From the NCBI RefSeq assembly GCF_036365525.1, contig NC_090372.1, positions 168,083,771 through 168,147,770 of the forward strand: a DNA stretch of 64,000 nt. Direction: 5' to 3'. The stretch's first letter is position 1. The number at the start of each line of letters is the position of its first letter. The position numbers and the translations under genes are program-made. The stretch comes from Heterodontus francisci. Lineage: Eukaryota. Below, piece by piece: positions 2,271-63,394 of the stretch. The notes beneath the pieces are model-generated. The model saw nothing but the letters and a program-made list of their open reading frames with translations. It ran no database searches and was not told where the DNA came from.

Positions 2271-2634
2271 ATTAGTAGATTGAACAGGTTGGGCCTATAC
2301 TCATTGGAGTTTAGAAGAATGAGAGGTGATCTTATTGAAACATATAAGATTCTGAGAGTGCTTGACAGCATAAATGCTGAGAAGATGTTTCCTCTTGTGG
2401 TGGAGTCTAGAACTAGGGGGAACAGTTTCAACATAAGAGGATTCCCATTTAAGATGGAAATGAGGAGCAATTTCTTTTCCCAGAGGGTCACTAATCTTTG
2501 GAATTCTCTACCCCAGAGAGCAGTGGCGGCTGAGTCATTGAATATATTCAAGGCAGAGCTAGACAGATTTTTGATCTACAAGGTTGTAAAGATTTATGGG
2601 GGCAGGCAGGAAAGTGGACAATCAGATCAGCCAT
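2271..2634 (+). mobile_element. CR1-clade LINE 3' fragment, interrupted by the Gypsy element; tail resumes at ~9079-9152
   Basis: ORF RLGLYSLEFRRMRGDLIETYKIL...FFSQRVTNLWNSLP; tail gatca-GCCAT-gatc is split by the LTR element and matches the intact tail at ~10496-10560. Confidence 0.9.
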
Positions 2635-2837
2635 TGCAGTGTTGTAGTGTTTTGAAATTGCAATTGCATTGTGCATTCTGTACTCTAGAGGTTGCTGTAG
2701 AACACACATGCTAGCGAAGGGAAAGTCAAATTAAAACAGAATAAACTCTTTGTGTTCAACAGCTTACTGCAGTCTCTGTCTCACATATCTTATACTAAAT
2801 TAAGTCAGACTTCACTAAATTGCAGAGGGACATCACA
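2635..2837 (+). repeat. 5' LTR of Gypsy element
   Basis: TGCAGTGTTGTAGTG...GACATCACA, contains AATAAA, aligns end to end with 8868-9073. Confidence 0.93.
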
Positions 2838-5102: not shown

Positions 5103-5994
5103 TGTTATGACCAGGTAAGAAAGGTGTTTAGGGGTCTCTTTCAGCCTTCACCTGATCTTATTGTAACAGGGTTTTGTTTTTAAACACACTGTGTTTTGAG
5201 CTCCCCCTTTGGTGAATTCTTATTCACCACTTTCCACTATAAGGCAAAGAAATGAATGTAAACAGGCTTTCTTAGGTTTGAAGAAGAAAAGTGAAATTTA
5301 TTAAACCTTAAACTTAAACTCTAATACGGTTAACATCCACGCTAGCATGCACATGTGATACACACATGCAAATAAAAACAGAAAAGAGCAGAAGAAAAAT
5401 AAAATGGAGAGATTTTAGACAATATCAGAAGAGTTTTTTGTTTACTGTGCTTCGAGCTCACTGTAGTCCTTTTGTAAGTAGTCTTGCTTTTCGTTGGGGC
5501 CCAGTATTCTTCTTAAATCTTGTTCACTGTAGGAGACTTTTCTCTCTTGGGGTTCATGTGTCTTCAATGGTTTCCAAAGCTGATGAGAGCGAGATGAGAG
5601 CAGACAGGAGAGAGGTGTTCTCAGTCCAGGAGAAAACAGCGTTCTGTGTTCAAAATCCCTTTTGGAAGTTCAAATTCAAAAAACTCCAACAGTCAGCCAG
5701 TTATGTGACCAATCTGGTCTGACCACATCTGTTTGTGTATTCGGCCATCTTAGCAGTCACCAGTCCACCTTTAACATCTGGCAATCAAAAGTCCATTGTG
5801 GGTTAAATTAGAGCAGGGAGTAGCTCTTTTGTCCTTTGAAGTTATGTCTGTTGATATGCTAATTTCTCTCTCCAGCCAAAGACTCCAATTGTTTTTAAAG
5901 CAAGTTCTTTCTTCACCAACAATAGTCCAAAATCAATGTTCATGTGACAAAATTAATTTTCCTCATTCTTGGCAGGTGGGGGGCTTGCCTGACA
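5103..5994 (-). mobile_element. Solo LTR of an unrelated LTR element, antisense within Gypsy pol
   Basis: Minus strand reads TGTCAGG...CATAACA; AATAAA on minus at ~5297-5302; CAC/ACAC repeated at both flanks; host protease peptide (EFHVISGECD / IISFHTATDL) resumes after it. Confidence 0.7.
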
Positions 5995-11290: not shown

Positions 11291-11299
11291 TAGTTTCAT

Positions 11300-11450
11300 A
11301 AAAACAGAAAATGCTGTAAATACTCAGCGGACCAGGTAGCATCTGTGGAAAGAGAAACAGAATTTAAGTTTCAGGTCGATTACCTTTCATCTGATAGGTC
11401 ATCAACCTGAAACATTAACTCTGTGTCTCTCTTTCCACAGATGCTGCCCA
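11300..11450. mobile_element. Degenerate inverted-repeat copy of the Penelope-like hammerhead repeat family
   Basis: cagcatctgtgg..gtttcaggtcgat..ctttcatc / gataggtcatcaacctgaaacattaactctg..ccacagatgctgcc; same family as 42838-43071. Confidence 0.75.
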
Positions 11451-15280: not shown

Positions 15281-15414
15281 AACTGATGAAAGGTCACTGA
15301 CCTGAAACGTTAACTCTGCTTCTCTTTCCACAGATGCTGCCAGACCTGCTGAGTATTTCCAGCAATTTTTGTTTTTATTTCAGATTTCCAGCATCTGCAG
15401 TATTTTGCTTTTAT
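15281..15414 (+). mobile_element. Penelope-like short repeat with hammerhead core, 5'-truncated, 13-bp TSD
   Basis: CTGATGA-A-AGGTC-ACT-GACCT-GAAAC-GTT-AACT at 15283-15315; TSD TTTAAAATTCTTG at 15268-15280 and 15415-15427. Confidence 0.85.
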
Positions 15415-17631
15415 TTTAAAATTCTTGTACCTTCTTTGATACTTATCACCGCGTTAGCATATCTCTTATTCCATTTTTGGTCTTACAGAGTTCATCATCC
15501 TGGCAAATTTACAAACCAGCAACTCCACTGCGATATATTTTGTGTAACTTCACACAAAATGAAGAAACACAAACATTGCACTTCCCTTTACTACCTAGTA
15601 AGGATATTTTGAAGTTATAGAAATAACATGTGGTTTTTGCATTAAATTATAAATTAAATAAAACCAGCCCGTGATAGCCACGCTAAATACGCTTAAATGC
15701 ATTTAACAGGCCCGCGGGAAATTCATCTGAATTGCAGATTTAACAGTATTTTCTTCATTTTCTGCCTGCTTGTGTAAAGTTGAGAAGTTTGTTACTTGTT
15801 TGAATGCAGTGTTCATACTTATGTGAAAAGTATTGTTGACTACAAGTAATACACGTTTTAATTAATAAATATTGCTCTAGTGAAGGGCCGACGCAGACAG
15901 GGTGGCCTCCCTTTGTGTGGGAAACCTCTATGGTTCCATATACTTTTTAAACTACACGTGAGTCCTTGTTTCAGATTCGTTGGCATTTAAGAGAAAGGAT
16001 GACGAATTTCAACATGTTGAATGGCAGCGATTGCCTTTGCTGCGCCAAATTAATCCATCAGCTGCGTCGTATACTAAACCTTCCCATTTTGTTTTGAAGA
16101 TTACTTTTAAATTCTTTATTTTCATCGGAGAATATGTATTTGGCAGTTTTAAATTCGGTTCTGCAGTTGAAAACGGCAACAAAATTGTATTGCTTTAATA
16201 CGCAAACTTAGAATGTAAAACGTTCTCATTTTAACCCCATCGGGCTCATAATTCTGTTAATAATTGCATTATAAACTTGTAAAAGTATGAACAGTGCTTT
16301 CACGAGGGTCAAATGCTCGGAATGTGCAGAGGGCTGCTGCCATGTAGAGCAGTATTGTGCGGTGTTAACTCCAACCCTTAAAGGTTACCATGCCCACTGA
16401 TCCTATCACGAAAGGACGCTGCTAATTTCCACTGCAGCTGAAACAGCTGTACCGGTGTTCAATTTCTTTATTTTTATATAAAACACGAATAAATACTTAC
16501 TGGAGAGAAATTATAATTATATATCTGAGTTGCACTTCACGGCAACTCTACAGTTCGTGCAGATTCTAAGTTGTTTAAAATTATCAAAGTATTGATTTTC
16601 ATAGAAGACATTTATCTGTTATATTAAAGATTCTTAGTAAGGTTCCGCAAGCCTGTAAAATATGAGGCTTCTTTCCTAAAAAGGAATAGGGCTGTAAATC
16701 GCAAGCTGTTTTCCGTAATTACCGATCAGACACATTTCGGTTATTTTCTTTCGACTTTATTCGCGGCTCGACGTTTATTGTAATCTTAGATTAATGTTTT
16801 TTTCATTCTAAAAATGACACTGCTCATAAGAATTTTGGAATAGGAGCTTTACAAATGCCGTTGTGAGCTGTAAATCTGTTTTAAGGCTGTCAACAGAATT
16901 GTAGTTAATAAATAATCTATTAAATTAGGATATTTAAAGCTTTTGATACTGTGTTTTCATTGATAGACCAGATTATAACAAGCAGAATTTGTGTAAATTT
17001 GATATTGTGATTTTAAAATTAGACCTATGTTGGTCAGCAGAAGACGCAGAGAAACTGATAGCTCGGCAAATATGCCAGCTTGGAAAGGGTTAAATTGTCG
17101 CCAGTGTATTGCAGCCATCTCTCTACAGTTCCTCTTCTCTCCGGAGCGGGGTGCTGCAGGTTTGCTCTCCCAAAAAAACATGCAATTAGACTTCTCACGA
17201 GTGTGTTTATTTAAACGGTTCTGCGATTTGGAGCGATATAACACAGCAAACAAAAAGGGCCGAGGGTGGGTGGTAAGTGGGGAGAGGATCCACTAATGAT
17301 GATTGGCGAGAACCACGGTACAAAACCACTTTTATTTTTGAAACCGTTTCGAAAAACCAAATTAGTTGTGTCGAAACGTGTTTACAAGTCAACCAGATGC
17401 AGGTCATGCGGAGATTTCTCATCTCAAGCGGTTTGACTCTAAAACAAAACATATACAACTAGTACAAGTATCCCAGTAAACCTTCCAAATAAAATGGAAA
17501 TGTTCTGCGTCGCAGGGATTTTCCTTCTCTTCTCTTCATGCTGCCGGTCTCCGAATTTGTGAAACTATTACAGTGAGCTTCGTTTATTTCCAGCTCACAG
17601 ACGCAAGCGAAATCACAGCGATATTTACGAA

Positions 17632-17797
17632 AGCAAAACACTGCGGATGCTGGAAATCTGAAATTTGAAATAAAAGCAGAAAATGCTGGAAATACTCAGC
17701 AAGTCAGGCAGCATCTGTGGAGAGAGAAAAACAGAGTTAATGTTTCAAACAGAAGCTGCCAGACCTCCTGAGTGTTTCCAGTATTTTCTGCTTTTAT
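17632..17797. mobile_element. Inverted-arrangement copy of the Penelope-like repeat (hammerhead core deleted)
   Basis: gatgctggaaatctgaa..aatgctggaaatactcagc..gagttaatgtttc / gctgccagacctcctgagtgtttccagtattttctgcttttat. Confidence 0.8.
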
Positions 17798-28280: not shown

Positions 28281-30731
28281 TCATAAGTTAAATCGTCTGA
28301 ATTTATGGCTAGGCGGGAGAGGTATTACAGCACCACCCATCTGCCATTTCCACACAGGATGGGCCTTCTGAGGTGCTTCGGGATCCTTAGTAGAGTTCAA
28401 TGAATACGCAGGGCACAAATCCCCATCGTTGCCAATAATTAGTGACGGTGGAGAGGGAAAATTTGCCATGAAATTAAATGGCCTTTTCACCGTGGATGCT
28501 ACACCATTGGCTACTCGTTTACGTTTATTTGTACCAGCAAATTCTTCTAGTGTTCCATCATGCACATCTGTTTTACCTGTAAGACGTGGATTCTCTGATT
28601 TCACAGTTGTTTTGACTGACGAGCTTTGCAAAGTGTGCTGTTTCCCCAACACCAAAGTCCTGTAATTCCTTCTTATTCTTGCACCATTTCGAAATTCGCA
28701 GTCCTCTAATACTGGAATGTTTAAAGTGCGTTGATGGTCTTCGCTTCGTCTGGATGCGTTGTGGGAAGTTGTGGCTTTTTCAGTGCACACATGGCTTTCC
28801 TTTGCTCTTGTCGAAAAACAGTCTTGTATTTTATTTTCCCTTAAAGTGGTCACTGCTTGCTTCGATACATTGCACGCATACTTCAGTTTCTTTCTCGGCT
28901 GTTGTGCCACATATCCGTACTCTTCCTCACAGCTATTTTCTTCTAATTTTACTGTAATATTGTGCATAATTGCTTTCCCCATGTCTGCATTGTCACTCTG
29001 GATCTGAACGGTGGGGGCCTGACTGCTGTCCGTGTTTAAACTCTGGAAAGCTGAGGACAGTGCGATGAAATTGCCGATTTTCGATTCTTTTTCTACCTTT
29101 ACTGCTAATGGAGAATCGTTGTCTGCAGGCTCGGAAACTATTGTCACATTGTTTTCTTCTGCACAGTGTGATATAGATGCTCCGAGGCATTTCTTTGACT
29201 CTGTTAATGTTCTTTGTTGTGGAAACTCGGTGTTTCCCTTTGGGCTAGGTGCAGGGCCCCCTTTAGCACAGTTAATTGTCGATTCAGTCCTCTTTAGATA
29301 ATGTGAAATTTCAGAGTGTGGGAATGCAAGCTCAGATATCCTATCATTATTTATCTCGGCAAAGCAACTTCCATAGCCAGTTGAGCAGCATATGTTATGT
29401 GACTTAATAGTCCAGTTCTGCTCGTTTCTCTTAACAATAGTCGCGGACTTTAAATTACAATGGGAAGTTCTCCCTTCTAGGAGATCGCTACTGGCTGTTT
29501 CATACACTACATTATTGCTTTTGGCTTGGAACTGGTAGTGGAAACTCGGCTGCGTTAAGACGAGAGGTTTACTGCAGATGCTAGAGAAACTGGTGCGCCT
29601 GAATCGTATGCTTTGAACCGAAACTTGGCTGGAAACGGAGCTAGAATCAGATTCCGACGAGCTGTCCTCGTCACTGGCTGAGGTTACTTCGGAGGATTCG
29701 GACACCGAGTCCTCCTCGTCTTCGTCCGAAGAAGCTGAGTTGCTGGAACTCGATAAACTTGACCCGAAGTCCGAGTCGTTGCCTGCGCGATCAGAGAAGG
29801 AGCTCGACTCAGAATCGCTGCTGCAGCTTTCCTGCAAGGGCCCCTGGTTACAATGCAGTCCGCTGGCAACATGAAATTTATTCAAGCACTGATACCCTCC
29901 TTTAGTTTTGCAAGATTTCGGAGTCGCTGCGGCCAGCAAGACTCGCTTGGCGGTGTTTGAACTCCCCAAATGTTTTTGAGTGATTTCACACGAACTTTTG
30001 CGCCTGAAGTAATACGTCAAACCGGTAGAGTTTGGAGACTTAGGGTAGTAGGCGATGGCGGATTGGTAAAACACGGGATGCCTGCAAATCATGCTCCGAA
30101 ATAAGGAGTGATTTGTGTGAAATGCTACACAGTTACTTGATATTTCAGCAGTTTCGTAGTTTTGGGGGATTTTGCAATGTGATCGGATCATTTCAGTGTA
30201 ACTATGGCTGGTAAATTTGCTGTAGAATTGAGATAGATTGGAGGCCGGTAGCGAGCTGCCGTCTCCTTGCAGAGCCTTGCTCATTCCAGTCAAAGGCTGG
30301 GGTTTTCCATTCAAACTCAACCAAACTTTCTTCTCTTTCAAAAAACTTGCGTAGCGATTACTGGGGGTTTTCTCCTGGTTGAGTTCGGTTGATAACAAGG
30401 TTCTGTTTATTTTTCTCCTCTTGGTCTTAAGAACTCGTTCAGTTTTGCACGAAGTGTACAAGGCTTCCACGTCTTCCCGAGAAATTAGAGTGCATTTAGC
30501 TGCATGAAAAGCAATAGAATGTATTGCCTTGAGTTTTCTTAATTCTTCCAAATCGCAGTGATGTTTCTTCACGTTTAGATGGTCCATCCTTTTGTGTACG
30601 GTTGTCCTGGGTATATTTTTCAACAGATTGGTGAATACTTGGGAAAGCGCAAACATTTGTTTCCCCTTAATTATAAGATAACCAAGTCTCACGCCATCCA
30701 CCTCTTCATAACCCGACTCCAAGTCTCCCAT
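28281..30731 (-). CDS. SKIDA1: SKI/DACH domain-containing protein 1 (816 aa from the conserved Met; ORF extends to an in-frame ATG at 30773)
   Basis: N-terminal SKI/DACH-type domain MGDLESGYEEVDGVRLGYLIIKGKQMFALSQVFTNLLKNIPRTTVHKRMDHL; Ser/acidic block ending SSQVSVQSIRFRRTSF; C-terminus KRPFNFMANFP.PPSLIIG.DGDL.PAYSLN...WKWQMGG.VIPLPPSHKFRRFN; strong Kozak GAAATGG; uninterrupted ORF; adjacent to MLLT10 as in mammals. Confidence 0.97.
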   Translation of the reverse strand: MGDLESGYEEVDGVRLGYLIIKGKQMFALSQVFTNLLKNIPRTTVHKRMDHLNVKKHHCDLEELRKLKAIHSIAFHAAKCTLISREDVEALYTSCKTERVLKTKRRKINRTLLSTELNQEKTPSNRYASFLKEKKVWLSLNGKPQPLTGMSKALQGDGSSLPASNLSQFYSKFTSHSYTEMIRSHCKIPQNYETAEISSNCVAFHTNHSLFRSMICRHPVFYQSAIAYYPKSPNSTGLTYYFRRKSSCEITQKHLGSSNTAKRVLLAAATPKSCKTKGGYQCLNKFHVASGLHCNQGPLQESCSSDSESSSFSDRAGNDSDFGSSLSSSSNSASSDEDEEDSVSESSEVTSASDEDSSSESDSSSVSSQVSVQSIRFRRTSFSSICSKPLVLTQPSFHYQFQAKSNNVVYETASSDLLEGRTSHCNLKSATIVKRNEQNWTIKSHNICCSTGYGSCFAEINNDRISELAFPHSEISHYLKRTESTINCAKGGPAPSPKGNTEFPQQRTLTESKKCLGASISHCAEENNVTIVSEPADNDSPLAVKVEKESKIGNFIALSSAFQSLNTDSSQAPTVQIQSDNADMGKAIMHNITVKLEENSCEEEYGYVAQQPRKKLKYACNVSKQAVTTLRENKIQDCFSTRAKESHVCTEKATTSHNASRRSEDHQRTLNIPVLEDCEFRNGARIRRNYRTLVLGKQHTLQSSSVKTTVKSENPRLTGKTDVHDGTLEEFAGTNKRKRVANGVASTVKRPFNFMANFPSPPSLIIGNDGDLCPAYSLNSTKDPEAPQKAHPVWKWQMGGAVIPLPPSHKFRRFNL

Positions 30732-31019
30732 TTCGCCACCTAAATTATGTCCCGCATTCGCTGGAAAAAACATCGACTGCGGAATTCGACATTCCTCATG
30801 GCATCCTGTTTAAAAACACACATAATTATTGTTTCTGATACAGCTGATTAAGTAAAACTTTGGGAGATATTTAGTACATAACATATGGAATAATATATAT
30901 TTTAAAAAGCAGCATCGCGTGTTATTTATATGACGCTTAATTTCCAAGTTATGCGTATTGTTATACCTGCAATCTTTAATTTTTCCAAATACGCATAGAT
31001 ATACTGTACTACATAAGAG

Positions 31020-38649: not shown

Positions 38650-38794
38650 ATGGTTTCAAGTGGACTTCCGGCTGACTTTTCAAATATGAAGGAGATGATT
38701 GGCGGCTGTTGCGTTTGCTCAGACGAGAGAGGCTGGGCTGAGAACCCCCTCGTTTACTGTGACGGACACGGTTGTAATGTTGCTGTTCATCAAG
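38650..38794 (+). CDS. MLLT10: MLLT10 (AF10) first coding exon, start of PHD1
   Basis: Polypyrimidine tract + TAG|ATG; encodes MVSSGLPADFSNMKEMIGGCCVCSDERGWAENPLVYCDGHGCNVAVHQ; 145 nt; donor G|GTAAAA. MVSS/MKEMIGG start and SKIDA1 synteny favour MLLT10 over MLLT6. Confidence 0.96.
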
Positions 38795-39402
38795 GTAAAA
38801 CAAATTAAGCAGAAAACAGCAGTACAAGGAAATACCCCAGGCTGGTGTTGAGGCTTCGGCCTCGGCACCGTCCTGACTTTCATCTTCAATTCCATATCAG
38901 TTTTAGGTCTGGGAAGGTCTGAGATTTACTTGTTCCCAGAGAAAAACCTTCAGATGGTTTATACGATGTCTTCCGTGTTTTAATAAGAATTGTTTTAAGT
39001 GGAGGCTCAGTGACTGTCCAGTGTTTTCTCTTGTGTTAATATTAAGTGTCTCATTTTATAACCTATAAGGCTTCCTGGATTCCATGTTGTGACTTCTTAA
39101 TGAAACAGTTTCGTACAATTAATCGGAATCGTGCAATAGGATTAGTAATTGGTGTGTATGTGCCTATGAATGTGTGTCTGCATATGCCTATACTCATGAA
39201 GGTTTGCACTGGGAGTGCAAACGATTTCATTGGCGGAACAGACTTGAGGGGCTAAATGGCCAACTCCTGTTTTTCTGTTCCAAATTTTTGTGTATATGTA
39301 TATATGTCTTTGCGTGTAGACATAATGCGTTTGCATGTTTCTCTAAATATGTGCGTGTGTCTACATGTGTATGTGTGCTTGTGACTGCGCAGATATGTGG
39401 AA

Positions 39403-39580
39403 AAGGACTTGCATTTATATAGCACCTTTTACACCGACGGGACGTCTCAAAGTGCTTTAGAGCCAATTAAGTACTTTTTAAAGCCACTGTTGTAATGCAG
39501 GAAACACCGGACCAGTCTGTGCACAGCAAACACGCACAAACAACAATCTGTGAATAACCAGGTAATCTGTTTTTGTGACT
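39403..39580 (-). mobile_element. 3' part of a Deu-domain-type SINE (AmnSINE/SacSINE-like) with L2-type tail
   Basis: acttgcatttatatagcacctttt..gacgtctcaaagtgcttt..gccaat.aagtactttt..cactgttgtaatg.aggaaac..gcacagcaa; family recognised from memory. Confidence 0.6.
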
Positions 39581-39584
39581 GGGA

Positions 39585-42120
39585 ATATATGTGTTGCGTG
39601 CGGTGTGAATGTTGTGCCTGTGTGTCTGTGTGTTGTGTGTGTGTCTGCCTTTGTGTGCTGTGTCTGGGTATGTGAGTGCGAATGTTCATGCGCATATGTG
39701 TGTATGGTCTGCATGTCTATATATATATATATATATATATGCTGAATTATGCATCTTGTGCCTATATGCAAGCATATTTATTTCTATGTATATGTAGATT
39801 TATGTACATACACATGTATCTATGTATAACGTGTATACCTATGTGTGTGTGTATATATGCACAAATGTGCGTGTTTATTTGTAGTATCTGGATGCATGTC
39901 TGCATTTATGTATACGTCTGTGCACATATGTGTCTGCGTATATGTCTGAGTGCATGTGTATAGATGTTATGTACATATGCTGTTATGTATATGTAATTGT
40001 GCACATATGTACATGTTAACAGATGCAAATATAGTATACACATCCATACCTATAAATGTGTATATATGGTGTGTGCACATGTCTGTGTATGTATATAAAA
40101 TGTTTGTGCATGTATGCATATGTACAGATATATGTATACATGTATTCACATGTATATGTACATGTGCATGCACAGAGTGTTGGTAACGTGTATATCTGCA
40201 TATTTGTTCTGGTGTATGTATATAGATGCATATATGAATATCTGTATATGCATGCCCACACAGGCAAAATATTGACACTAAATGCATGCATATGTATATA
40301 CACTTACATTTATATTAGATAAATGTGTATACGTGTAGACGTAATGGGTATATGTAGTAGTGTATATATAATGTCTATGCAGCTATATACATACATATAT
40401 ATGCCCTGTTGTCCTGTAGTTTGTGTGTGCATGTACATGCTTGGGTATATGTTTATATTCTTGTGTGAGCATTTGTTTGTGCGCATGTATATATTTGTGA
40501 GTAACTGCGCTTGGCCTAAGTGAGCATGTGTATATATGGGTATGTCTATGCTTGTGTGTGTATATATTTGTGCACACATGTCTACATATATTTGTACACA
40601 CGTGCATATATGTCTAGTGTCATGTGAGTGTGTGTATCTGGATGATGTGCATGTATATATAGTGTGCATATGTATGTACTGATATGCGGATGTGCACATT
40701 TATGTATATATCTATATCTGCACGAGTATATGTCTGTGTGCATGTGTATGTATATTTGCACATGTGCATACTTGTGTATGCATGTAGATGTTTGTGTGCA
40801 TGTCATTGTATATATTTGCATGCATGTGTGTGTGTATTTGTATACGTATATGTGCTGTATATGTGTCATGTATATATTTTTGACTGCTTCTATATGTGCG
40901 TGCATTCATGTGGTTATGTGCGTGCAATTCAGTGTATATGTACATATGGAGTGCCAGTGAGCATGTTTGTGTGTATATATGTTTGTGTATATTTGTGTAC
41001 ATGTTTGCATATGCACATATATATATAGCTGTGTATATATAATTGTGTGCCTGTATGCCTACCTATATGTGTGCCTATATATATGTGTGTGCACAGGCAT
41101 GAGTATGTGTGTCTTGTGTATCTGTGCATGTGCATATTTGGGTGTATTTGTCCATATGTAAGTAAAAGATTTTCCTTTGTGAATATATATATAAATAACA
41201 TCTGTAGAGTGTATATGGGGTTATATATAATGCATATGCATGTGTGCATATTTATATGTGTATATATCGTGTGTATATTTGCATGCATCATGCCGTTTGT
41301 ATGTGCGCAGAGGTGTATGTATATATGTGCAAGCATATAGTGCGCACATGTATATATTTGTGTCTCTCGACTGCTAAATGGAGGTGTGCATATTTATATA
41401 TGCATATGTATGTGCACAAGTGTGTGTGCCTGTATTCACATCTGCATAGGAGCATAGGAAATGGGAGCAAGAGTAGGCCATTTGGCCCGTTGAGCCTACT
41501 CTGCCATTCAAACAGATCATGGCTGGTCATCTACCTCTACGCCATTTCCCCCCACTTATCCTCATAGCCCTTGATGTCATTAGTATCCAGAAATCTGTTG
41601 ATTTCTGTCTTGAACATGCTCAATGATTGAGTTTCCACAGCCCTCTGGGGTAGAGAACTCTACAGAGTCAGCACCCTCTGAGTGCAGAAATTCCTCCTCA
41701 TCTCAGTCTTAAGTGGCCTGCCCTTTATTCTGTGTATGGATTTGCATATATATATTAGTGTTTGTTATAATTGCATGTGTATGCATAAATATGTGCACAT
41801 ATATATGTATGTGCGTGAGTACTGTGTGTGTATGTGTACACATCTGGAGAAGTATGTGTATAAACAAGTGGTTGCTATCTTCACATAGATGTGTGTGTGT
41901 ATATTATATATGTCTGTGTATACATATATGTTTATACATGTGTGTATGTAAATATAGCCTGGATGTATACAGGTGCATATATGTTTGTGTATATAAATGC
42001 ACATGATCATCTACCTCTACGCCATTTTATATATGTATATAAATATGAATATGTATTTTTGTATATCTTTTTGTGTGTGCAGAGGTGTGTGTGTGTATAT
42101 ATGTGTGAGAGTGCATCTGC
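39585..42120. repeat. ~2.5-kb degenerate (TG/TA/CA)n low-complexity block
   Basis: Near-continuous alternating purine-pyrimidine sequence; pure (TA)n at ~39718-39740; source of many spurious ORFs. Confidence 0.95.
41447..41730 (-). mobile_element. CR1 3' tail fragment within the low-complexity block
   Basis: ggagcaagagtaggccatttggccc...gatcatggctg...ccacagccctctggggtagagaa. Confidence 0.85.
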
Positions 42121-42837
42121 TCAATTCTGTCACTTATCCATGGGAGGAGGATGTGTGCCTGATGGGACTGAGGGTGTTCCAAATCTTGCAGCACTGGTCT
42201 ATAACTCAGACCTCTGTAAATGTAACATCTTTGTCTTCTGTCATTTGGTTCTCAGAAGTGTTACGATCTGTCTTTTTCACAAATGGGTCTCAGTAATTAG
42301 AACATTTTATACTTCCTAACTATCAGCAAACGCACGTAAGCTGGTCATAATTTAATGCATTAAAAAACTTAATTTAAGCTAAGGAAAAACAGTGTTGTTT
42401 CTCTCTTGCAAGTGTTGGTAATTAGACTGTTCATATTTTCTAATGATCAACAAAAGTTATAATAAACAGGCTATTCAGTTGCCAAATTCAAGTGATTTGA
42501 CTTTTGTAAAATCAAGATGAATTGAAATGCATGTCTCGCTTTTAGTACATTTTGTGAAGTTTATAGAGTATATAATTTTAACACCAATTAAATCTACAAC
42601 AGGTGTGTAATCAATAAATCTGCCATTTCCCCCCTTGTACTCATACAGTTTTAAATTAACACCCAATATAGATTTTTCGTGCATAAAATGTTTGAAATTG
42701 TTCTTTTATCTTTCCTTCAAATGATTTAAAAAAACAACCAAATAGATTTTGTTGGAGGCTGGGAAGTAAACATTGGCTCATAAATGCTCCTGATGCAGTC
42801 TGTGAAATAGTGCGCAAAACACATGGCAAATCTATTA

Positions 42838-43071
42838 TAATAAAAGCAAAATATTGCAGATGCTGGAAATCTGAAATAAAAACAAGAAATGCTGGAAATA
42901 CTCAGCAGGTCTGGCAGCATCTGCAGAGAGAGAAGCTGAGTTAACGTTTCAGGTCAGTGACCCTTCATCAGAACTGGATGAAGGGTCACTGACCCTGAAA
43001 CGTTAATGCTGCTTCTCTCTCCACAGGCGCTGCCAGACTGCTGAGTATTTCCAGCATTTCTTGTTTTTATT
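42838..43071. mobile_element. Penelope-like short element with inverted duplication (~95-bp-arm hairpin) in an MLLT10 intron
   Basis: Arms 42875-42969 and 42977-43071 are near-perfect reverse complements; near-perfect TSD ATGG(C)AAATCTATTA at 42823-42837 and 43072-43085. Confidence 0.88.
42939..42975 (-). ncRNA. Minimal type-I hammerhead ribozyme motif
   Basis: Minus strand AGTT-CTGATGA-A-GGGTC-ACT-GACCT-GAAAC-GTT-AACT: stem I AGUU/AACU, CUGAUGA and GAAA core boxes, stem II, palindromic ACGU stem III, GUU triplet. Confidence 0.7.
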
Positions 43072-43733
43072 ATGGAAATCTATTAGTCTGAATTTAAACT
43101 AAGACAGTCTATGTTGTGGGCAAAAAGATAAAGTCCAAGCCCAAGCTTTTGGGAGAAGCTGAGGCCTTCAGGTAAATTTTTTAATGCAGGTATTAATGGA
43201 CAAAAGAGAAATAATTGTTATGTTATTTTGGAATAGGTATTTTAAAAAAAATTGTTTGAAATCTTATTCTGGAAAGTTGAAATTTTACTTGGAAAGCATT
43301 TTCATAAACCAGTTTTTGAGTATTTTGTGTAATTTGAGTGATTCATTAAAAGACTGACCGAAATGGACAACTAGGGATTTTGGTTGAAACAGATTGATGC
43401 ACGGTATTTCTGGACTGAAAGAATTACACAGGAAGTAAGGCTAATATGTACAGGATTGTATGACAAATGGAAGTTTTTAATATAGACAGTTTTGTATGTG
43501 CAAAAATACAATGTGTACTCTATATTTACACAGTGTGCACTGCGTAAGAACATGTATGTATTTGCGTATATATTTTCCTGTAGATTTTTTCAAACAGACT
43601 ACAAAAGGTACACGAATACTTTACAGTAAAAAGAAACCTGTGTATTTTTAATCTGGTTACTATTTCCTTTAGTTATGGCTAGGTATTGGGGATGTTGGAG
43701 ATCGATTGTTTTTTTTTGCCTTTACTATTGCAG

Positions 43734-43813
43734 CATGTTATGGCATTGTGCAAGTACCCACTGGACCGTGGTTTTGTAGAAAATGTGAATCGCAGGAGAG
43801 AGCCGCCCGAGTG
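43734..43813 (+). CDS. MLLT10: MLLT10 coding exon 2
   Basis: ttgcag|CA TGT..; (A)CYGIVQVPTGPWFCRKCESQERAARV; 80 nt; donor GTG|GTGAGT; phase-compatible. Confidence 0.97.
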
Positions 43814-46679: not shown

Positions 46680-48165
46680 TACAAAATAGAAGGAGGCCAT
46701 TCGGCCCATCGAGTCCATTCTGGCTCTCCGCATAACAGTCCAGCCAGTCCTACTCTCCCGCTTGATCCCAGTAGCCCTGCAAGTTTATTTACTTAAAGTG
46801 CCCATACAATTTACTTTTGAAATTAATGATTGTCTCCACTTTCACCACCCTCATGGGCAGCGAGTTCCAGGTCATTAGCAACGCTGCGTAAATAAGTTCT
46901 TCCTTACATTCCCATTGTATCTCTTGCCCAAAACCTACAATCTGTGTCCCCTAGTCCTTGTACCATCAGTTAATGGGAGCAGTTTTTCCTTGTCTAACTT
47001 ATCTAAGCCTGTTATTATCTTGTACATCTCTATCAAATCTCCCCTCAGTCTCCTTTGCTCCAGGGAGAACAACCCCAGCTTTTCCAACCTAACCTTGTAA
47101 CTAAAATTGCCCATCTCTGGAACCATTCTGGTAAATCTTCTCTGCACCCTCTCAAGGGCCCTCACACCCTTCCTAAAGTGTGGTGACCAGAAATAGATGC
47201 AGTACTCCAGTTGGGCCTAACCAGAGCTTTATAAAGGTTCAGCATAGCTTCCCTGCTTTTGTACTCAATGCTTCTATTTAGGAAGCCCAAGATCCCATAT
47301 GCTTTGCTAACCGCACTCTCAATATGTTCTGCCACCTTCAAAAATAGATGCACATTCACTGGAACGACGGAGGTGGAGGGGTGACATGATAGAGGTTTAC
47401 AAAGTTATGAGCGGCATGGACAGAGTGGATAGTCAGAAGCTTTTTCCCAGGGTGGAAGAGTCAGTTACTAGGGGACATAGGTTTAAGGTGAGAGGGGCAA
47501 AGTTTAGAGGGGATGTGCGAGGCAAGTTCTTTACACAGAGGGTGGTGAGTGCCTGGAACTTGTTGCCGGGGGAGGTGGTGGAAGCAGGTACGATAATGAC
47601 GTTTAAGAGGCATCTTGACAAATACATGAATAGGATGGGAATAGAGGGATATGGTCCCCGGAAGTGCAGAAGGTTTTAGTTCAGGCAGGCATCAAGATCG
47701 GTGCAGGCTTGGAGGGCCGAATGGCCTGTTCCTGTGCTGTACTTTTCTTTGTTCACCTCCATGTCCCACTGTTCCTGCATACTCTTTTTAGAATTGTGCC
47801 ATTAAATCTATGTTGCCTCATCCTATCCCTTCTACCAAAATGTATCACCTCACGCTTGTCTGTGTTAAATTCCATCTGCCACTTGTCTGCCCATTCTGCT
47901 TATCTATGGCCTGTTGCAGGCAGTTCGTATCAACTTCATTGTTTGCCAGTCCACCCACTTTGGTATCATTAGCAAATGTTGAAACTCTACTCTGTATTCC
48001 AAGATCCAAGTCATTTATATATAGCAAAAAAAGGCACTGCCCCTTGAGGAACACCACTGACTACAATCCTTCAGTCTGTAAAACAACCGTTTACCGCGAC
48101 TCACTTTTCTGTCCTTGCGCCAATTTTTTTTATCCAGTTCGTCACTTAATTTCCTATTCCATGAG
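46680..48165 (-). mobile_element. CR1 LINE 3' region, split by a second CR1
   Basis: ALERVQRRFTRMVPEM..LGLFSLEQRRLRGDLIEMYKI; LYINDLDLGIQSRVSTFANDTKVGG. Confidence 0.9.
47360..47751 (+). mobile_element. Younger CR1 3' fragment inserted antisense into the previous CR1
   Basis: MIEVYKVMSGMDRVDSQKLFP..FFTQRVVSAWNLLP plus tail; TTCAC duplicated at 47355-47359 and 47752-47756. Confidence 0.9.
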
Positions 48166-52389: not shown

Positions 52390-55375
52390 AATGGGTGCAG
52401 GAGTAGGCCATTTAGCTCCTCGAATCTGTTTGACTGTTCAAAAATGAGATCATGGCTGATCTGTGATTTAATTCCATATATCTGCATTTGCCCCCTATCC
52501 CTTAATTTCTTTGGTTAACAAAAATTGATGTATCTCAGATTTAAAATTAACAATTGGTCAAGGATCAGTTGCTGTTTGCTGGAAGAGAGTTCCAAACTTC
52601 CATCTCCCTTTGTCTGTAGAAATGTTTCCTAATTTCACTCCCGAAAGGTTTGGCTGTAATTTTTAGACTGTGCCCCCTAGCCCTAGACTCCCCAACCAGT
52701 GGAAATAGTTTGTCTCTATGCTATCGATTCCCCATAATATCCTGAAACCTTTGATAAAATCACCCTTAACTTTCTAAATTCCAGGGAATACATTCCTAGT
52801 TTTGTGTAATCCATTCCTCATAATTTAACTTTTCAATCTCCGGTATCATTCTGGTAAACCTACGCTGCACTTTCTCCAAGGCCAATCTATCCTTCCTGTG
52901 GTGAACAGAACTGCTCACGGTACTTTAACCTTTGTATAGTTGAAGCATTACTTCAATCCCCTTGTATTCTAGTCCTGCTAGGTATGAAAACCAGCATTCC
53001 CCTTAGCCTTTTTGATTATATTCTCTACCTGTTTATGACATTTTAATGGTCTGTATACCTGGACGCCCAAGATTCTCTGGACTTCCACTGTTTCTAACTT
53101 TTCACCATTTAGAAAATACCCTGTTTAAATCCAAAGGGGATGACCTACATTAAAATCCACTTGCCACGGCTTTGTCCATTCACTTAATCTATAAATGTCT
53201 CTTTGTAGACGGAAGCATAAAGATACACTGCTTACAATGCCCCCTATCTTTGCATTATTAGCAAATTTGGATAGGTGGTTTTCTATTACATCATCTGTTA
53301 ATAAATATGGTGACTTGTTGAGGCCCCAACACAGATCCTTGCAGGACACCATGTGTCACATCCTGCCAATTGGTGTACCTGCCCATAATACTTAGTCTCT
53401 GTCTCCTGACCCTTAGCCAATTTCTTAAGGTCAATAATTTGCCATCAATTCCATGAACTTCAACAATAGCTAACAATCTGTTATGCGGGACTTTGTCAAA
53501 TGCCTTCTGGAAGTCCATATAAATAACATCCATAGACATTCCCCTGTTCATTACTTAAGTTACCTCTTCAACATATTCAGTCAGGTTCACCAGGCATGAC
53601 TTACCTATTACGAATGCATGCTGGCTCTCTCTGATCAGCTGAAAATTTTCAAGGTGCTCAGTCATCTATCTTTAATTATAGACTCCAGCAATTTCCCGGC
53701 AACATGGTCTATAATTTCCTGGTTTTCGACTGTCACCTTTTTTAAATAGCAGAGTGACATGCGTAATTTCCCAATCTAAAGGAATGAGCCCCGAATTAAG
53801 AGAACTTTGGGCATCTTCAGTGTTCCTGCCCACTTCCTTTAAAATTCTGAGATGGAAACCTGGGGATTTGTCACTGTTTAGTGCCATTATTTTCTTCATT
53901 GCTAGTATTCTAATTTTGGAGAGTCTCTGTCCCTGATTCAATATTAGTTTCTTTGGAATGTCTGGAATACTGACTTCTACTGTAAATACTGACACAATTC
54001 AGCATGTCAGTCATTTCTTTATTTTCATTGACAATATCACCATTATCAGTTTTCAAGGCATCCACAATGTTGATATCACTCTCTTTTTCCTAATATAATT
54101 GTAAAAACACTTTGTGTTGATTTTGATATTCCTTACAAGTATCTTTTCATACTCCCTTTTTGTAGCGGTTGCTAACTGTTTTGTCACTCTTTGCTGTTCT
54201 TTGTATCTTTCCTAGTCATCAGGATCTGTGAATTTGTTTGTATTTTTGTATGCTTTTTCTTTTAGTTTTGTGTCTCTTAGCTCTTTAGTTATTAATGGCT
54301 GTCTTTTTGGCAAGTCGAGTTCTTGCCCCTTAAGGGTGTAAACTTAAAGTCATTATTTTTATCTACCCTGCTAGTTACATTCTCAGAAAAACTCTTAATA
54401 AAGTTGTCACACACGATTTCCCTTTCATAAAACTATGTTGACTCTGCCTAATCATATTATGATTTTCTAAGTGCCCTGTTACCAGTACCTTAATAATGGT
54501 TTCCAGCATTTTCCCAAATTTCCAGGGAATTTTGGAAGATTACAACCATTGCATCCACTAACCCTGCTGCTGCTTCTTGTGGAACCCTAGAATGTAGGCT
54601 GTCAGGTCCAGAGGATTAATCGACTTATAGTCCCATTAATTTCTCCAGCACTTTTTCTTTATTTTAAGTTCCTCATTCTCATTAGACCCTTGGTTCCCCA
54701 CAATTTCTGGTATGTTTTTTGTGTCTTCTACTGTGAAGACAGCCATACAATAATGGTTTAACATCTCTGCCATTTCCTTATTCCTCATTATAATTTCTTT
54801 TGTCTCTGGTTCTAAGGGGCCCACCTTTACCTTTGCAGCTACTCTTTGTTTTTACACACTACTGGAAGCTCTGGCAATGTGTTCTTAGAATCTGAGTAAA
54901 CTAGCAAGAATTATGTTTCCTTCCTATTTATCATTATTTTTGGCCATCCTTTGCTGACCCAGCTCTCCCAATCCTCAAGTTTACGACTTCCTTGGCAAAA
55001 TTCAAGCCTCTTTTAATCTAATACTATTCTTAACTTCTTCAGTCAGCTGCTGAAGGATCATTTTTCCCATGGAGTTTTTATTTCTGAATGGAATATATGT
55101 TTGTTGAGAATTATGAAATATTTCTTTAATGTTTGCCATATTGGCTTTTAATCTAATTTTGCAATTTATCTTGGCCAGCTCATCCCTCTCGCCTTTGTAA
55201 TTGGCTTTATTTAAGTTTTCTACTCTAGTGTCGGATTGAAAGACGTCACTCTTGAACGTATCATGAAGTTCAATCTCGATCACTCATCCCCTTGCTATGA
55301 GATTACTAATTTACCCTGTGATTACACAAGACGATCTAAAATAGTATTTTCCCTGGTTGGTCTACAATGTATTGG
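52390..55375 (-). mobile_element. Stacked old CR1 LINE ORF2 fragments (RT and endonuclease/tether regions); endonuclease piece resumes ~56965-57200
   Basis: DVIYMDFQKAFDKVPHNRLL, GVLQGSVLGP, LLFKKGDSRKPGNYRP, KEMAEMLNHY, ESVWVEIRKNKGKKARVGVFYKP. Confidence 0.88.
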
Positions 55376-56535
55376 AACATAAGAACAAGGAGCTGGAGTA
55401 GGCAATTCAGCCCCTTGAGCCTGCTCCGCCATTCAATATGATCATGGCTGATCTCATCTCTGCCTCAACTCCACTTTCCTGCCCGTTCTCCGTAACCCTT
55501 CAACCCTTTACTAATTAAAAATCTGTCTATCTCCTCAAATTTATTCAATGTGCCGGCATCCACTGCACTCTGGGGTAGTGAATTCCACAGACTCACGACC
55601 CTTTGAGAGAAGTAATTTCTCCTCATCTCTGTTTTAAATCTGCTGCCCCTTATCCTAAAACTATGACCTCTCGTTCTAGATTGCCCCACCAGAGGAAACA
55701 TCCTCTCTACGTCTACTTTGTCAATCCCCTTAATCATCTTATATACCTCAATTAGATCTCCTCTCATTCTTCTAAACTCTAGGGAGTAAAGGCCTAAACT
55801 GCTCAATCTCTCTCCATATGACAAACCCCTCATCTCTGGAATCAATCTAGTGAACCTCCTCTGAACTGCCTCCAATGCAACTACATCCCTCCTCAAGTGA
55901 GGGACCAAAACTGTACGCAGTACTCCAGGTGCGGTCTTGTATAGTTGTACCAATACTTCCCTACTTTTATACTCTATTCCTTTAGCAATAAATGCCAGAA
56001 TTCCATTTGCCTTCCTTATTACCTGCTGCACCTGCATACTAGTTTTCAGCGATTCATGCACGAGGACACCCAGATCCCTCTGCACTGAAGCACTCTGAAG
56101 TTTCTCTCCATTTAGATAATTTGCCTTTCTGTTCTTCTGACCAAAATGGATAACCTCGCACTTATCCACGTTAAATTCCATCTTTCAACTTTTGGCCCAT
56201 TCACCTAACCTTCCATTTCCATTTGTAAATTTCTTTATTGCAACTTACTATCCCACCTATTTTAGTGTCATCTGCAAATTTGGCTATAGTACCTTCTATC
56301 CCTGCATCCAAGTCATTAATATAGATTGTAAATAGCTGGGGCTCGAGGACCGAACCCTGTGGCACCCCACTAGTTACATCTTGCCAACCAGAAAAGGACC
56401 CATTTATCCCGACTTTCTGTTTTCTGTTGGTTAGCCAATCCTCTATCCAAGCTAATAAATTGCCCCTCACCCCATGTGATGTTATCTTGTGTATTAACCT
56501 TATTGTTCTAGGAACCGTCTCAAATGCCTTCCATA
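55376..56535 (-). mobile_element. Younger CR1 LINE 3' fragment (RT C-terminal half plus tail)
   Basis: [34 protein letters not shown]; 238-aa ORF MEFNVDKCEVIHFG..FSQRVVSLWNSLPQ; intact tail. Confidence 0.93.
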
Positions 56536-56563
56536 AAGTCATTCTTCAAACTACTTTTGCCAT

Positions 56564-61494: not shown

Positions 61495-62215
61495 TATTTG
61501 TTTCATGGGATGTGGGCGTCGCATCCAGGCCAGCATTTATTGCCCATCCCTAATTGCCCATGAGAAGGTGGTGGTGAGCTGCCTTCTTGAACCACTGCAG
61601 TCCATATGGGGTAGGTACACCCACAGTGCTATTAGGAAGGGAGTTCCAGGATTTTGACCCAGCGACTGTGAAGGAACTGCGATATAGTTCCAAGTCAGGA
61701 TGGTGTGTGACTTGGAGGGGAGCTTGCAGGTGGTGGTGTTCCCATGCATCTGATACCCTTATCCTTCCAGGTTGTAGAAATTGTGGGGTTGGAAGGTTCT
61801 GCCTAAGTAACCTTGATGCATTGCATCTTGCAAATGGTACACATTGTTACCACTGTGCATCGGTGGTGGAGGGAGTGAATATTTGTGCCTGGGGTGCCAA
61901 TCAAGCGGGTTGCTTTGTTCTGGATGGTTTCAAGCTTCTTGAGTGTTGTTGGAGCTGCACCCATCCAGGCAAGTAGAGAGTATTCCATCACACTCCTCAC
62001 TTGTGCCTTGTAGATGGGGGACAGCTTTTGGGAAGTCAGGAGGTGAGTTACTTGCTGCAGGATTCCTAGCCTCTTACCTGCTCTTGTAGCCATGGTATTT
62101 ATATGGCTACTGCAGTTCAATTTCTGGTCAATGGTAACCCGCAGAACGTTGATAGTGGGGGATTCAGCGATCGTAATGCCGTTGAATGTCAAGGGGAGAT
62201 GGTTAGATTCTCTCT
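61495..62215 (-). mobile_element. LINE 3' fragment (CR1-group) sharing its tail with the LF-SINE-like element
   Basis: ORF LTFNGITIAESPTINVLRVTIDQKL..IYKAQVRSVMEY..AWMGAAPTTLKKLETIQNKA; tail gggcaattagggatgggcaataaatgctggcc. Confidence 0.88.
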
Positions 62216-62569
62216 CAGTTTGTTCCAAGTCTGCTGCCAATGTTATTCAGCTCCTTAGAAATCATACTGCACTTACTTCAGAGTGAAGTATGCACCTTCA
62301 ATGGCTATTAGGAAAGGCAGGTTGCTATAAATCAAGATCTGTGAATCACGGCTTAAAAATTACATGATTTTTTTTGTTCTGGGGTGCTGTAAAATCTGTC
62401 CTGAAGTACAGATAGAACATAATTTACAGATGTGGAATGTCAAATTGCACTTTGCAAGATACAGCACCTTAAAACGTGCCGCAACTAACTCAACTTTACG
62501 TGGCTTTGAGAGGGAGAAGAAAGAATGCAGCTCTCCTAGGACCAAATTGAGGCTCAGAACAGACGTCTG

Positions 62570-63394
62570 CCCATTTGGCTCCAGATAATCCTGCAAACGT
62601 GCCGCAGTGGGTAGTCCTAATTAAACCAGAGCAGGAAGTTTACTGGTGCTCAATACTGTAAACACCAGCAGCACCTCTCTGAACAATTGGATGTTCCTAG
62701 GCCTTAGCTCTGTCAGCTTGAGCCTAAATTTTCTGGATTTGGGTGAGCGGTACATGCTTCTATAGGGGAACTGTGTGTACTCCATATTGGAAAAACTGAA
62801 ACCCTACAGGTGGATGTAGATTTCTCAGTAGCTTGACTTGGAGACTGTTGAACATGACAACAAATGCTTCAGAGCAGGGAAAGGGCGAGAAAGGTCAGCT
62901 CTAGCATTGTCTGAATCCAAGTTGGATTCAAGATGACATGGCTGACAATAGAATCCTGGAACTAAGTCAACTAATCTGGTACCTGAAGCAAACAAATCCT
63001 GAGTACTCCAAAGTACTGTTGATTGACCAGCTTGTTTGGCACATTAATGGCACTTGGAGCAGTGTGTGTGTCATTGGGGCCTGGGTTTCTTCCCATTTGG
63101 CTCCAGATAATCCTGCAAACATGTGCCGCAGTGGGTAGCATAGTCCTAATTAAACCAGAGCAGGAAGTTTACTGGTGCTCAATACTGTAAACACCAGCAG
63201 CACCTCTCTGAACAATTGGATGTTCCTAGGCCTTAGCTCTGTCAGCTTGAGCCTAAATTTTCTGGATTTGGGTGAGAGGTACATGCTTCTATAGGGGAAC
63301 TGTGTGTACTCCATATTGGAAAAACTGAAACCTAACAGGTGGATGTAGATTTCTCAGTAGCTTGATTTGAAGACTGTTGAACATGACAACAAAT
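62570..63394 (+). repeat. Near-identical ~300-bp direct repeats (62570-62865 and 63092-63394) separated by 226 bp
   Basis: cccatttggctccagataatcctgcaaac...gaacatgacaacaaat present twice, with two small insertions and a few substitutions. Confidence 0.95.

What the first reader, a model, noticed from the sequence alone, without database searches (positions are those of the whole stretch)
42838..43071. Hammerhead-ribozyme-bearing mini-retroelement folded into a long hairpin inside an MLLT10 intron
Seen: a 234-bp non-coding insert with a 14-15-bp TSD and two ~95-bp inverted arms. Its minus strand reads AGUU-CUGAUGA-A-GGGUC-ACU-GACCU-GAAAC-GUU^AACU, i.e. a complete minimal type-I hammerhead with an extra A after CUGAUGA and stem III reduced to palindromic ACGU. 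The plus-strand arm carries a second core broken at its 5' end (CUG-GAUGA...GAAACGUU). Established: Penelope-like elements carry such minimal hammerheads in their pseudo-LTRs, often need dimerisation to cleave, and give inverted terminal duplications. Inference: this is a non-autonomous, ribozyme-processed retroposon. The intact ribozyme is antisense to MLLT10 and the sense copy is disabled, consistent with selection against cleavage of the pre-mRNA. The hairpin would be a dsRNA substrate for ADAR or Dicer.
Basis: partly seen in the sequence, partly recalled or inferred. Interest (0 to 1): 0.8.

Follow-up and report, generated by a model that had tools for sequence, protein, structure and literature searches.

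The report
Fold-back Penelope retrotransposon end, cartilaginous fish
This hairpin in an MLLT10 intron is two short, head-to-head copies of the ribozyme-bearing end of a very common Penelope-like retrotransposon, an insertion pattern already described for this class, and it shows no sign of doing anything for or against the host gene.

Summary
The Penelope link holds: the unit is the terminus (pLTR plus 36-nt tail) of a Neptune-type element with RT and GIY-YIG domains found in this genome. The rest fails. It is not a self-propagating mini-element: 14 of 42 insertions in 664 kb are such head-to-head pairs with varied junctions, 13 of 14 with one tailed arm, the published PLE pattern. The 'disabled' sense core is simply the junction, which recurs elsewhere in both polarities. 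Copies keep the 33 nt upstream of the cut (29 of 56 arms begin at the ribozyme's 5' edge, 4 near the cut), so templates were uncleaved. No strand bias was seen in two genes (intact cores 4 sense, 6 antisense; low power), and MLLT10 carries a perfect sense core. The hairpin buries the intact core (+35.7 kcal/mol). Worth keeping: the two 3' ends sit on a duplicated motif, and the 5' hot spot has TATA/Inr-like context. The scan noted the same pattern in two other genomes.

The parts
42823..42837 (+). left copy of target-site duplication (15 nt)
42838..42874 (-). PLE 'tail' (unit positions 102-138), present on this arm only; a diverged repeat of positions 76-101
   Evidence: tail at one end per PMC8557442 passage
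42838..42976 (-). long (tailed) arm: element terminus from just 5' of the ribozyme to the outer RT start site
   Evidence: 95-97% to 29 other genomic copies
42939..42975 (-). minimal type-I hammerhead: stem I 42975-72/42942-39, CUGAUGA 42971-65, extra A 42964, stem II 42963-59/42955-51, GAAA 42950-47, CG, U16.1 42944, U17 42943; predicted cut 42943/42942
   Evidence: architecture as in PMC4209133; activity untested
42970..42976 (.). head-to-head junction and hairpin loop; source of the apparent 'broken core'
42977..43071 (+). short (tail-less) arm, unit positions 7-101; starts inside the core, one extra base after stem II
43001..43026 (+). splice-acceptor-like stretch (branch-like TAAT, pyrimidine tract, CAG) in MLLT10 sense, inside the hairpin stem
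   Evidence: sequence only; use not tested
43072..43085 (+). right copy of target-site duplication (14 nt)
38650..38796 (+). MLLT10 coding exon upstream of the host intron
43733..43813 (+). MLLT10 coding exon downstream of the host intron
15283..15415 (+). solo tailed copy of the same family with TSD, outside MLLT10
17630..17797 (.). older head-to-head pair of the same family (one tailed arm), both cores lost
11298..11448 (.). older, decayed head-to-head pair of the same family

Best explanation
A dead-end insertion of an abundant Neptune-type Penelope-like retrotransposon (PLE). SHOWN: the 138-nt unit is the element's terminus; it follows the RT-GIY-YIG frame at 3' ends and precedes the ORF in near-full copies; insertions end at one of two fixed sites (about 101 or 137), mostly begin at the ribozyme's 5' edge, carry 10-19-bp TSDs, and a third of them are head-to-head pairs with one tailed and one tail-less arm of the same subfamily. 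INFERRED: the element's protein cut both strands of an AT-rich target about 14-15 bp apart; each 3' end primed reverse transcription internally on uncleaved element RNA, one at the outer site (tail) and one at the inner site; both cDNAs ran to, or stalled a few bases short of, the RNA's 5' end and were joined there with 0-1 base of overlap, giving the palindrome (I put about 0.55 on two primings from one RNA or RNP, 0.3 on fold-back copying of the first cDNA). The RNA 5' end is most likely a Pol II start at the ribozyme's first base (about 0.55). The hammerhead is a genuine inherited PLE motif, but in this insertion it is paired into the hairpin and in all likelihood silent; the insertion is neutral cargo in the MLLT10 intron.
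For: 17 of 29 other top copies continue upstream into pLTR and endonuclease sequence; ORF remains show DKG, RT motifs, a C-x4-C-x2-C linker and YIGET; RVT_1 E 3.7e-6; endonuclease look-alikes are GIY-YIG clusters, 0.97; L085, L088 and L004 have the unit directly before the ORF. In 664 kb: 56 arms, 42 events, 14 pairs, 13 of 14 with exactly one tailed arm; 3' ends 25 of 56 at 95-110 and 21 at 130-140; 5' ends 29 of 56 at -10..+10, 4 at 29-39. TSD of 9 or more in 19 of 37 events vs 13 of 300 controls. Paired arms disagree at 29 of 377 subfamily-diagnostic sites (7.7%) vs 27% for shuffled pairs and 6.1% background. Hammerhead fold costs +35.7 kcal/mol in the palindrome, +1.3 in a solo unit. Published pattern: inverted 5'-truncated copy, 30-40-bp tail at one end (PMC8557442 passages; PMC3846280); two internal RT start sites flanking the tail, both strands primed, unprocessed RNA as template (PMC11167929).
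Against: RVT_1 hits are below Pfam's gathering score and Pfam gave no GIY-YIG hit; no tree against reference PLEs was built; no intact full-length ORF was found among the loci read. The sample is one region plus search hits biased to my queries. Rare variants shared by both arms are only marginally enriched (3 in 45 pairs vs 0.81, 96 of 2000 shuffles), and a few pairs differ at two diagnostic sites (L127, L134, region 494 kb), so 'one RNA' is not proven; one active subfamily at a time would also give concordant arms. The exact junction recurs (3 exact loci; 5 of 27 loci have the same string and 3 more its subfamily equivalent), which a master-palindrome model also predicts. The 5' hot spot also coincides with an acceptor-like AG. 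No RNA data for this locus.
Confidence: 0.86

Rival explanations
1. One reading: a non-autonomous mini-retroposon in which the whole palindrome is transcribed, cut by the ribozyme and re-inserted by the PLE protein.
For: TSD flanks the whole unit; the exact 30-nt junction occurs at 3 loci with their own TSDs and the same polarity; short units outnumber ORF-bearing ones (6 of 56 arms extend upstream); PLE-derived non-autonomous retrozymes exist in vertebrates (bioRxiv 2026.07.22.740005).
Against: 14 pairs, 14 different arm-start combinations; 14 junction strings in 27 loci, the focal type in two subfamilies and both polarities, no arm-specific inheritance; copies retain sequence upstream of the cut; no tandem array, which retrozymes need; core buried in the hairpin.
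Confidence: 0.06
2. Same PLE origin, but the second arm arises by fold-back self-priming of the first cDNA (or self-priming on an antisense template, as proposed for rotifer Penelopes), not by a second target-primed event.
For: Arms concordant at diagnostic sites; 3 pairs share rare variants; junctions are small loops or near-perfect palindromes; self-priming proposed in PMC3846280.
Against: The short arm ends at the same site (about 101) that solo copies use (13 of 28 solo ends at 98-105), as expected for a true RT start site; some pairs differ at two diagnostic sites; PAc protein extends both target strands in vitro.
Confidence: 0.27
3. The insertion has been kept or shaped by selection at MLLT10 (sense core disabled to protect the pre-mRNA, or hairpin used for editing or splicing control).
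For: At this locus the intact core is antisense; arms inside the two genes lean antisense (21 sense, 27 antisense; solos 9 vs 15; strict cores 1 vs 3); retrozymes are reported depleted in Xenopus introns.
Against: No lean tested is significant (p 0.47-0.75); a perfect sense core with canonical G-C closing pair sits in another MLLT10 intron (region 231579); four U4C-variant cores, left out of the 'intact' count, are all sense; the arms have drifted about 10% apart; the junction type is generic.
Confidence: 0.05
4. A MITE-like DNA transposon with terminal inverted repeats.
For: Short, non-coding, palindromic, TSD-flanked.
Against: Asymmetric ends (tail on one side), variable TSD length 10-19, variable centres, many single-arm copies, and direct continuity with an RT + GIY-YIG ORF.
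Confidence: 0.01

Closest known systems
EN+ Penelope-like elements, Neptune clade: insertions with inverted 5'-truncated copy and 30-40-bp tail (PMC8557442, passages; PMC3846280, parts 1-4 of 5)
   Same: RT then Cys linker then GIY-YIG; partial tandems; head-to-head inverted copy; tail on one end; variable TSD; TATA/Inr-like motifs in the pLTR.
   Different: Here both arms are cut down to about 100-140 nt with no coding sequence, and such stumps dominate the family (about 63 events per Mb in the one region sampled).
Minimal hammerheads of metazoan PLEs (PMC4209133, parts 1-2 of 4)
   Same: 4-bp helix I, extra nucleotide between 9 and 10.1, no real helix III, palindromic 15.2-16.2, mostly single dispersed motifs, opposite-strand pairs close together.
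   Different: Helix II is 5 bp; 10.1-11.1 is G-C, G.U or A-U by subfamily; position 17 is U; a U4C subfamily exists. No cartilaginous fish named in the text I read.
PAc / Poseidon of Anolis (PMC11167929, parts 1-2 of 4)
   Same: Two internal RT start sites bounding the tail; both DNA strands primed; uncleaved RNA is the template; AT-rich targets.
   Different: PAc is Poseidon clade with the ORF start inside the ribozyme; here the ribozyme is followed by a short upstream frame, a stop, and the main ATG about 170 nt in.
Non-LTR retrozymes (bioRxiv 10.64898/2026.07.22.740005, part 1 of 5 plus passages)
   Same: Non-coding, type-I hammerhead, related to PLE pLTRs, present in a chondrichthyan.
   Different: Retrozymes are head-to-tail tandem arrays with two or more ribozymes; this is head-to-head, single, and keeps the sequence upstream of the cut.

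Membership tests
EN+ Penelope-like element | Single frame with RT and C-terminal GIY-YIG endonuclease linked to this terminus | tested here: met
   ORF remains in copies contiguous with the unit; RVT_1 E 3.7e-6 though under gathering, no Pfam GIY-YIG hit; Atlas GIY-YIG look-alikes 0.96-0.97. All copies read are broken.
EN+ Penelope-like element | pLTR: same terminal sequence before and after the ORF | tested here: met
   Unit 5' of ORF in L085, L088, L004; 3' of endonuclease in L033 and others; L089 shows it downstream.
EN+ Penelope-like element | Inverted 5'-truncated copy with 30-40-bp tail on one end | tested here: met
   13 of 14 pairs; 20 of 27 junction-selected loci; tail 36 nt.
Neptune clade | CX2-5CxxC linker between RT and EN | tested here: met
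   C-x4-C-x2-C upstream of the GIY-YIG motif; definition from PMC8557442 passage; shared with Nematis.
Neptune clade | RT phylogeny groups with Neptune references | not tested
   No reference PLE sequences were fetched.
Minimal type-I hammerhead of PLEs | Conserved CUGANGA / GAAA / UH core with extra base and palindromic 15.2-16.2 | tested here: met
   Column counts over 56 arms: core 5.1% mismatch; N7 varies; CG decays to TG/CA as expected of dead copies.
Minimal type-I hammerhead of PLEs | Stem covariation | tested here: inconclusive
   One pair varies (A-U 18, G.U 8, G-C 5 of 34), loop II varies, the other eight pairs are nearly invariant; consistent but thin, and no shuffle control was run.
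Minimal type-I hammerhead of PLEs | Self-cleavage as dimer or with protein | not testable with these tools
   Folding only.
Rfam hammerhead families | Covariance-model match | tested here: not met
   No hammerhead family among 22 matches at E up to 10.
Non-LTR retrozyme | Head-to-tail tandem units each with a ribozyme | tested here: not met
   No short tandem of units among 56 arms in 664 kb.
Self-propagating palindromic mini-element | Fixed junction and arm-specific variants inherited across loci | tested here: not met
MITE / TIR DNA transposon | Symmetric fixed termini and fixed TSD length | tested here: not met

The most novel reading that the evidence does not exclude
The family is a large natural record of PLE replication that adds two testable rules. 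(1) The element RNA starts at the first base of the hammerhead (TTAAAA at -30, Inr-like CCAGTTC), so self-cleavage would only clip the capped first 33 nt: an off-switch or turnover device, not the step that makes the template. (2) The two RT start sites lie at equivalent points of a duplicated motif (TTTCCAGCA at 78 and 107; TTTTATT ending at 101 and 137), each able to pair with the same upstream AUGCUG, so a dimeric protein primes one target strand from each repeat, which explains 'one tail per insertion'.
Probability: 0.3. Interest if true: 0.55.

Novelty: new member of a known kind. Interest (0 to 1): 0.25.

Why it matters
As a single locus it matters little: it is one of a very large number of PLE stumps, and its structure and ribozyme type are published. 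It is a caution that an 'intact versus broken' ribozyme pair in a palindrome can be a junction product, not selection. The family has some value for the open question of how PLEs make inverted copies and tails and what their hammerheads do, because short copies here mark both RNA 5' end and RT start sites in great numbers. In eight literature searches I found no paper describing this family in cartilaginous fishes, but repeat libraries such as Repbase or Dfam could not be searched and probably hold it; no supplements were read, and those of PMC4209133 and the 2026 preprint may list chondrichthyan motifs.

Tried and rejected
Rfam scan: no hammerhead match; miRNA-hairpin matches all below gathering and explained by the palindrome. 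Expression, editing, small RNA: no RNA holder listed for the locus (seven contig sets, share 0.05, RNA only guessed), so nothing can be said. Laying 4 of those 7 runs on a pLTR-ORF copy (L085) showed the family in two other organisms, depth about 1e6 on the short unit against about 1e3 on the ORF, and 7 opposite-strand joints at varied places among the 15 joints shown (55 not shown); none of the 5 skips shown had splice-type ends; contigs cannot show starts or editing. Splice-acceptor origin of the 5' hot spot: considered because an acceptor-like AG ends at position 2 and the D. virilis intron ends at helix I; disfavoured because solo copies share no upstream exon and several keep bases -2/-1, but not excluded. 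Core-versus-flank conservation (5.1% vs 10.8%) was not used as evidence of selection on dead copies because the flank includes subfamily sites and alignments are trimmed. Lunse et al. (PMC5785218) was not held; its dimer result is known to me only through a review passage. Sequence look-up in earlier findings gave nothing. The orientation test covers 664 kb and two genes only. PMC12602865, PMC4350176, PMC6155905, PMC8969392 and PMC2377424 were seen as passages and added only background.

Full report
Observation. The coordinates are exact. The insert 42838-43071 lies between a 15-nt and a 14-nt copy of a target duplication, has arms 42875-42969 and 42977-43071 around a 7-nt loop, and an extra 36-37 nt at the left end. 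Either strand folds as one hairpin of about -156 kcal/mol, with 0 of 200 shuffles as stable. The minus strand 42975-42939 holds a minimal type-I hammerhead with the cut predicted at 42943/42942. Rfam's hammerhead models do not match it. The host gene is MLLT10 on the plus strand: the upstream exon matches chondrichthyan AF-10 at 98% and tblastn maps 17 coding blocks from 38650 to 398653 of the extended region. I number the 138-nt minus-strand unit from 42975 (= 1); the cut is at 33/34.

What it belongs to. Four more family copies lie in the window. A genome search gave 1114 candidates, 40 scored, 30 fetched. Of the 29 others, 17 continue upstream into a shared region that leads into a frame with a GIY-YIG-type YIGET motif, a C-x4-C-x2-C linker and RT motifs. 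Walking further, L085 and L088 carry the unit directly before the ORF, and L004 starts at position 1 and runs into it. Pfam gives RVT_1 at E 3.7e-6, below gathering, and nothing for the endonuclease; the Atlas gives GIY-YIG clusters at 0.96-0.97. The Cys linker marks Neptune and Nematis clades (PMC8557442, passages). So the unit is the pLTR end of a Neptune-type Penelope-like element. All ORFs I read are broken, and no tree was built.

Unbiased sample. I scanned the window plus the next 600 kb. It holds 56 arms in 42 insertions, about 63 per Mb, which would be about 380,000 genome-wide if this one region were typical. Fourteen insertions are head-to-head pairs; 13 of 14 have exactly one tailed arm. 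3' ends cluster at 95-110 (25 of 56) and 130-140 (21 of 56). TSDs of 9 or more were found in 19 of 37 events examined against 13 of 300 random controls (five long copies were not examined). This is the published PLE pattern: an inverted 5'-truncated copy and a 30-40-bp tail on one end (PMC3846280 parts 1-4; PMC8969392 passage). In Anolis PAc the tail is the stretch between two internal RT start sites and both target strands are extended (PMC11167929 parts 1-2).

Is the palindrome a mobile unit? All 14 pairs differ in where their arms start. The exact 30-nt junction occurs at three loci, each with its own TSD, which at first looks like a master copy. But among 27 loci chosen for similarity to the junction there are 14 junction strings; the focal type appears in two subfamilies and with the tail on either side; and loci with the same junction share 3.5 same-arm against 3.4 cross-arm variants. 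The junction is therefore a recurrent product. The two arms of a pair come from the same subfamily: 29 of 377 diagnostic sites disagree (7.7%) against 27% in shuffled pairs and 6.1% background (0 of 10,000 shuffles). Rare shared variants are only marginally enriched (3 vs 0.81; 96 of 2000). This fits two primings from one RNA or RNP, fold-back copying, or one subfamily active at a time; I cannot separate them.

Was the RNA ribozyme-processed? Of 56 arms, 29 begin within -10..+10 of position 1, 6 extend further upstream, and 4 begin within 29-39. [quoted passage not shown] In 29 copies with upstream sequence, TTAAAA lies at -30 to -25 and position 1 sits in CCAGTTC, which fits TATA and initiator consensus (recalled) and the TATA/Inr-like motifs noted in rotifer pLTRs. 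I infer a transcription start at the ribozyme's edge, with cDNA running off it. An acceptor-like AG also ends at position 2, and the D. virilis intron ends at helix I, so splicing remains a rival.

Is the ribozyme real? Over 56 arms the core is conserved, N7 and loop II vary, and pair 10.1-11.1 is A-U 18, G.U 8, G-C 5 of 34; the other pairs hardly vary, and the stem-III CG decays to TG or CA. That is consistent with a structured motif in source elements but is thin covariation. Such motifs cleave weakly, as dimers (review passage). In this insertion the hammerhead fold costs 35.7 kcal/mol against the hairpin, also for the nascent transcript, compared with 1.3 in a solo unit.

Selection at MLLT10? 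The plus-strand 'CUG-GAUGA' is the join of the arms, not a point lesion. In MLLT10 (+) and a DnaJ/Myb-domain gene on the minus strand (Pfam; the name DNAJC1 is recalled), 48 arms split 21 sense to 27 antisense (p 0.47), intact cores 4 to 6 (p 0.75), strict cores 1 to 3 (p 0.63), solos 9 to 15. Four U4C cores left out of those counts are all sense. A perfect sense core with a G-C closing pair sits in a later MLLT10 intron. The slight antisense lean and small numbers leave a modest family-wide bias open, but this locus is no evidence for it. ADAR or Dicer use is plausible for any 95-bp intronic stem and was not testable.

Verdict. A real, correctly described feature, and a new member of a known kind: a stump-sized inverted-plus-tail insertion of a Neptune-type PLE. 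Two earlier notes of this scan reached the same reading on other genomes; I had stated mine before seeing them and do not count them as evidence. The residual interest is mechanistic: both RT start sites end the same motif in a duplicated segment, and the RNA appears to begin at the ribozyme. Interest 0.25.

Noticed in passing
window 42838-42900 (unit 76-137): The tail is a diverged repeat of the preceding segment: TTTCCAGCA at 78 and 107, TTTTATT ending at 101 and 137, the two 3' end sites; either repeat can pair with AUGCUG at 56.
   Followed up: partly
L088, unit positions 2, 55, 105, 141, 170: A string of acceptor-like sites (pyrimidine tract + YAG, several with branch-like TAAY) runs through the element's 5' end, the last just before the main ATG. 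One lies in MLLT10 sense at 43026.
   Followed up: partly
L088, unit 56 onward: A 30-codon upstream frame starting at position 56 is in frame with the main ORF and separated from it by one TAA.
   Followed up: no
L123, L125, L135-L148; region 361448, 430377, 460291, 478328: A subfamily has CCGAUGA/CCGAAGA (U4C) together with the canonical G10.1-C11.1 pair; many of its palindromes share the junction TCATCGGATGA or its reverse complement (10 of 27 loci).
   Followed up: partly
loci and solo copies: A second cluster of 5' ends at positions 5-9 suggests a recurrent RT stop about 6-8 nt from the presumed RNA 5' end; the sample is biased towards it by the query.
   Followed up: no
window 28281-30809 (-): Single-exon 842-aa frame with Ski/Sno/Dac and EPOP Pfam domains, upstream of MLLT10; the name SKIDA1 is recalled.
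   Followed up: partly
window 39100-42050: About 3 kb of low-complexity CA/TG-rich sequence in the same intron, giving many spurious frames.
   Followed up: no
window 62566-62865 and 63088-63394: A 300-bp direct repeat at 96% identity.
   Followed up: no
window 2271-2714, 46935-47679, 53125-56545, 61803-62246; 5993-8263: Several decayed LINE-like RT fragments and one decayed LTR-type pol-like stretch by eye from the frame list; labels recalled, not tested.
   Followed up: no
L035:995-2270: An older related PLE copy, about 70-72% identical, with the same ribozyme start and a shortened stem II loop region.
   Followed up: no
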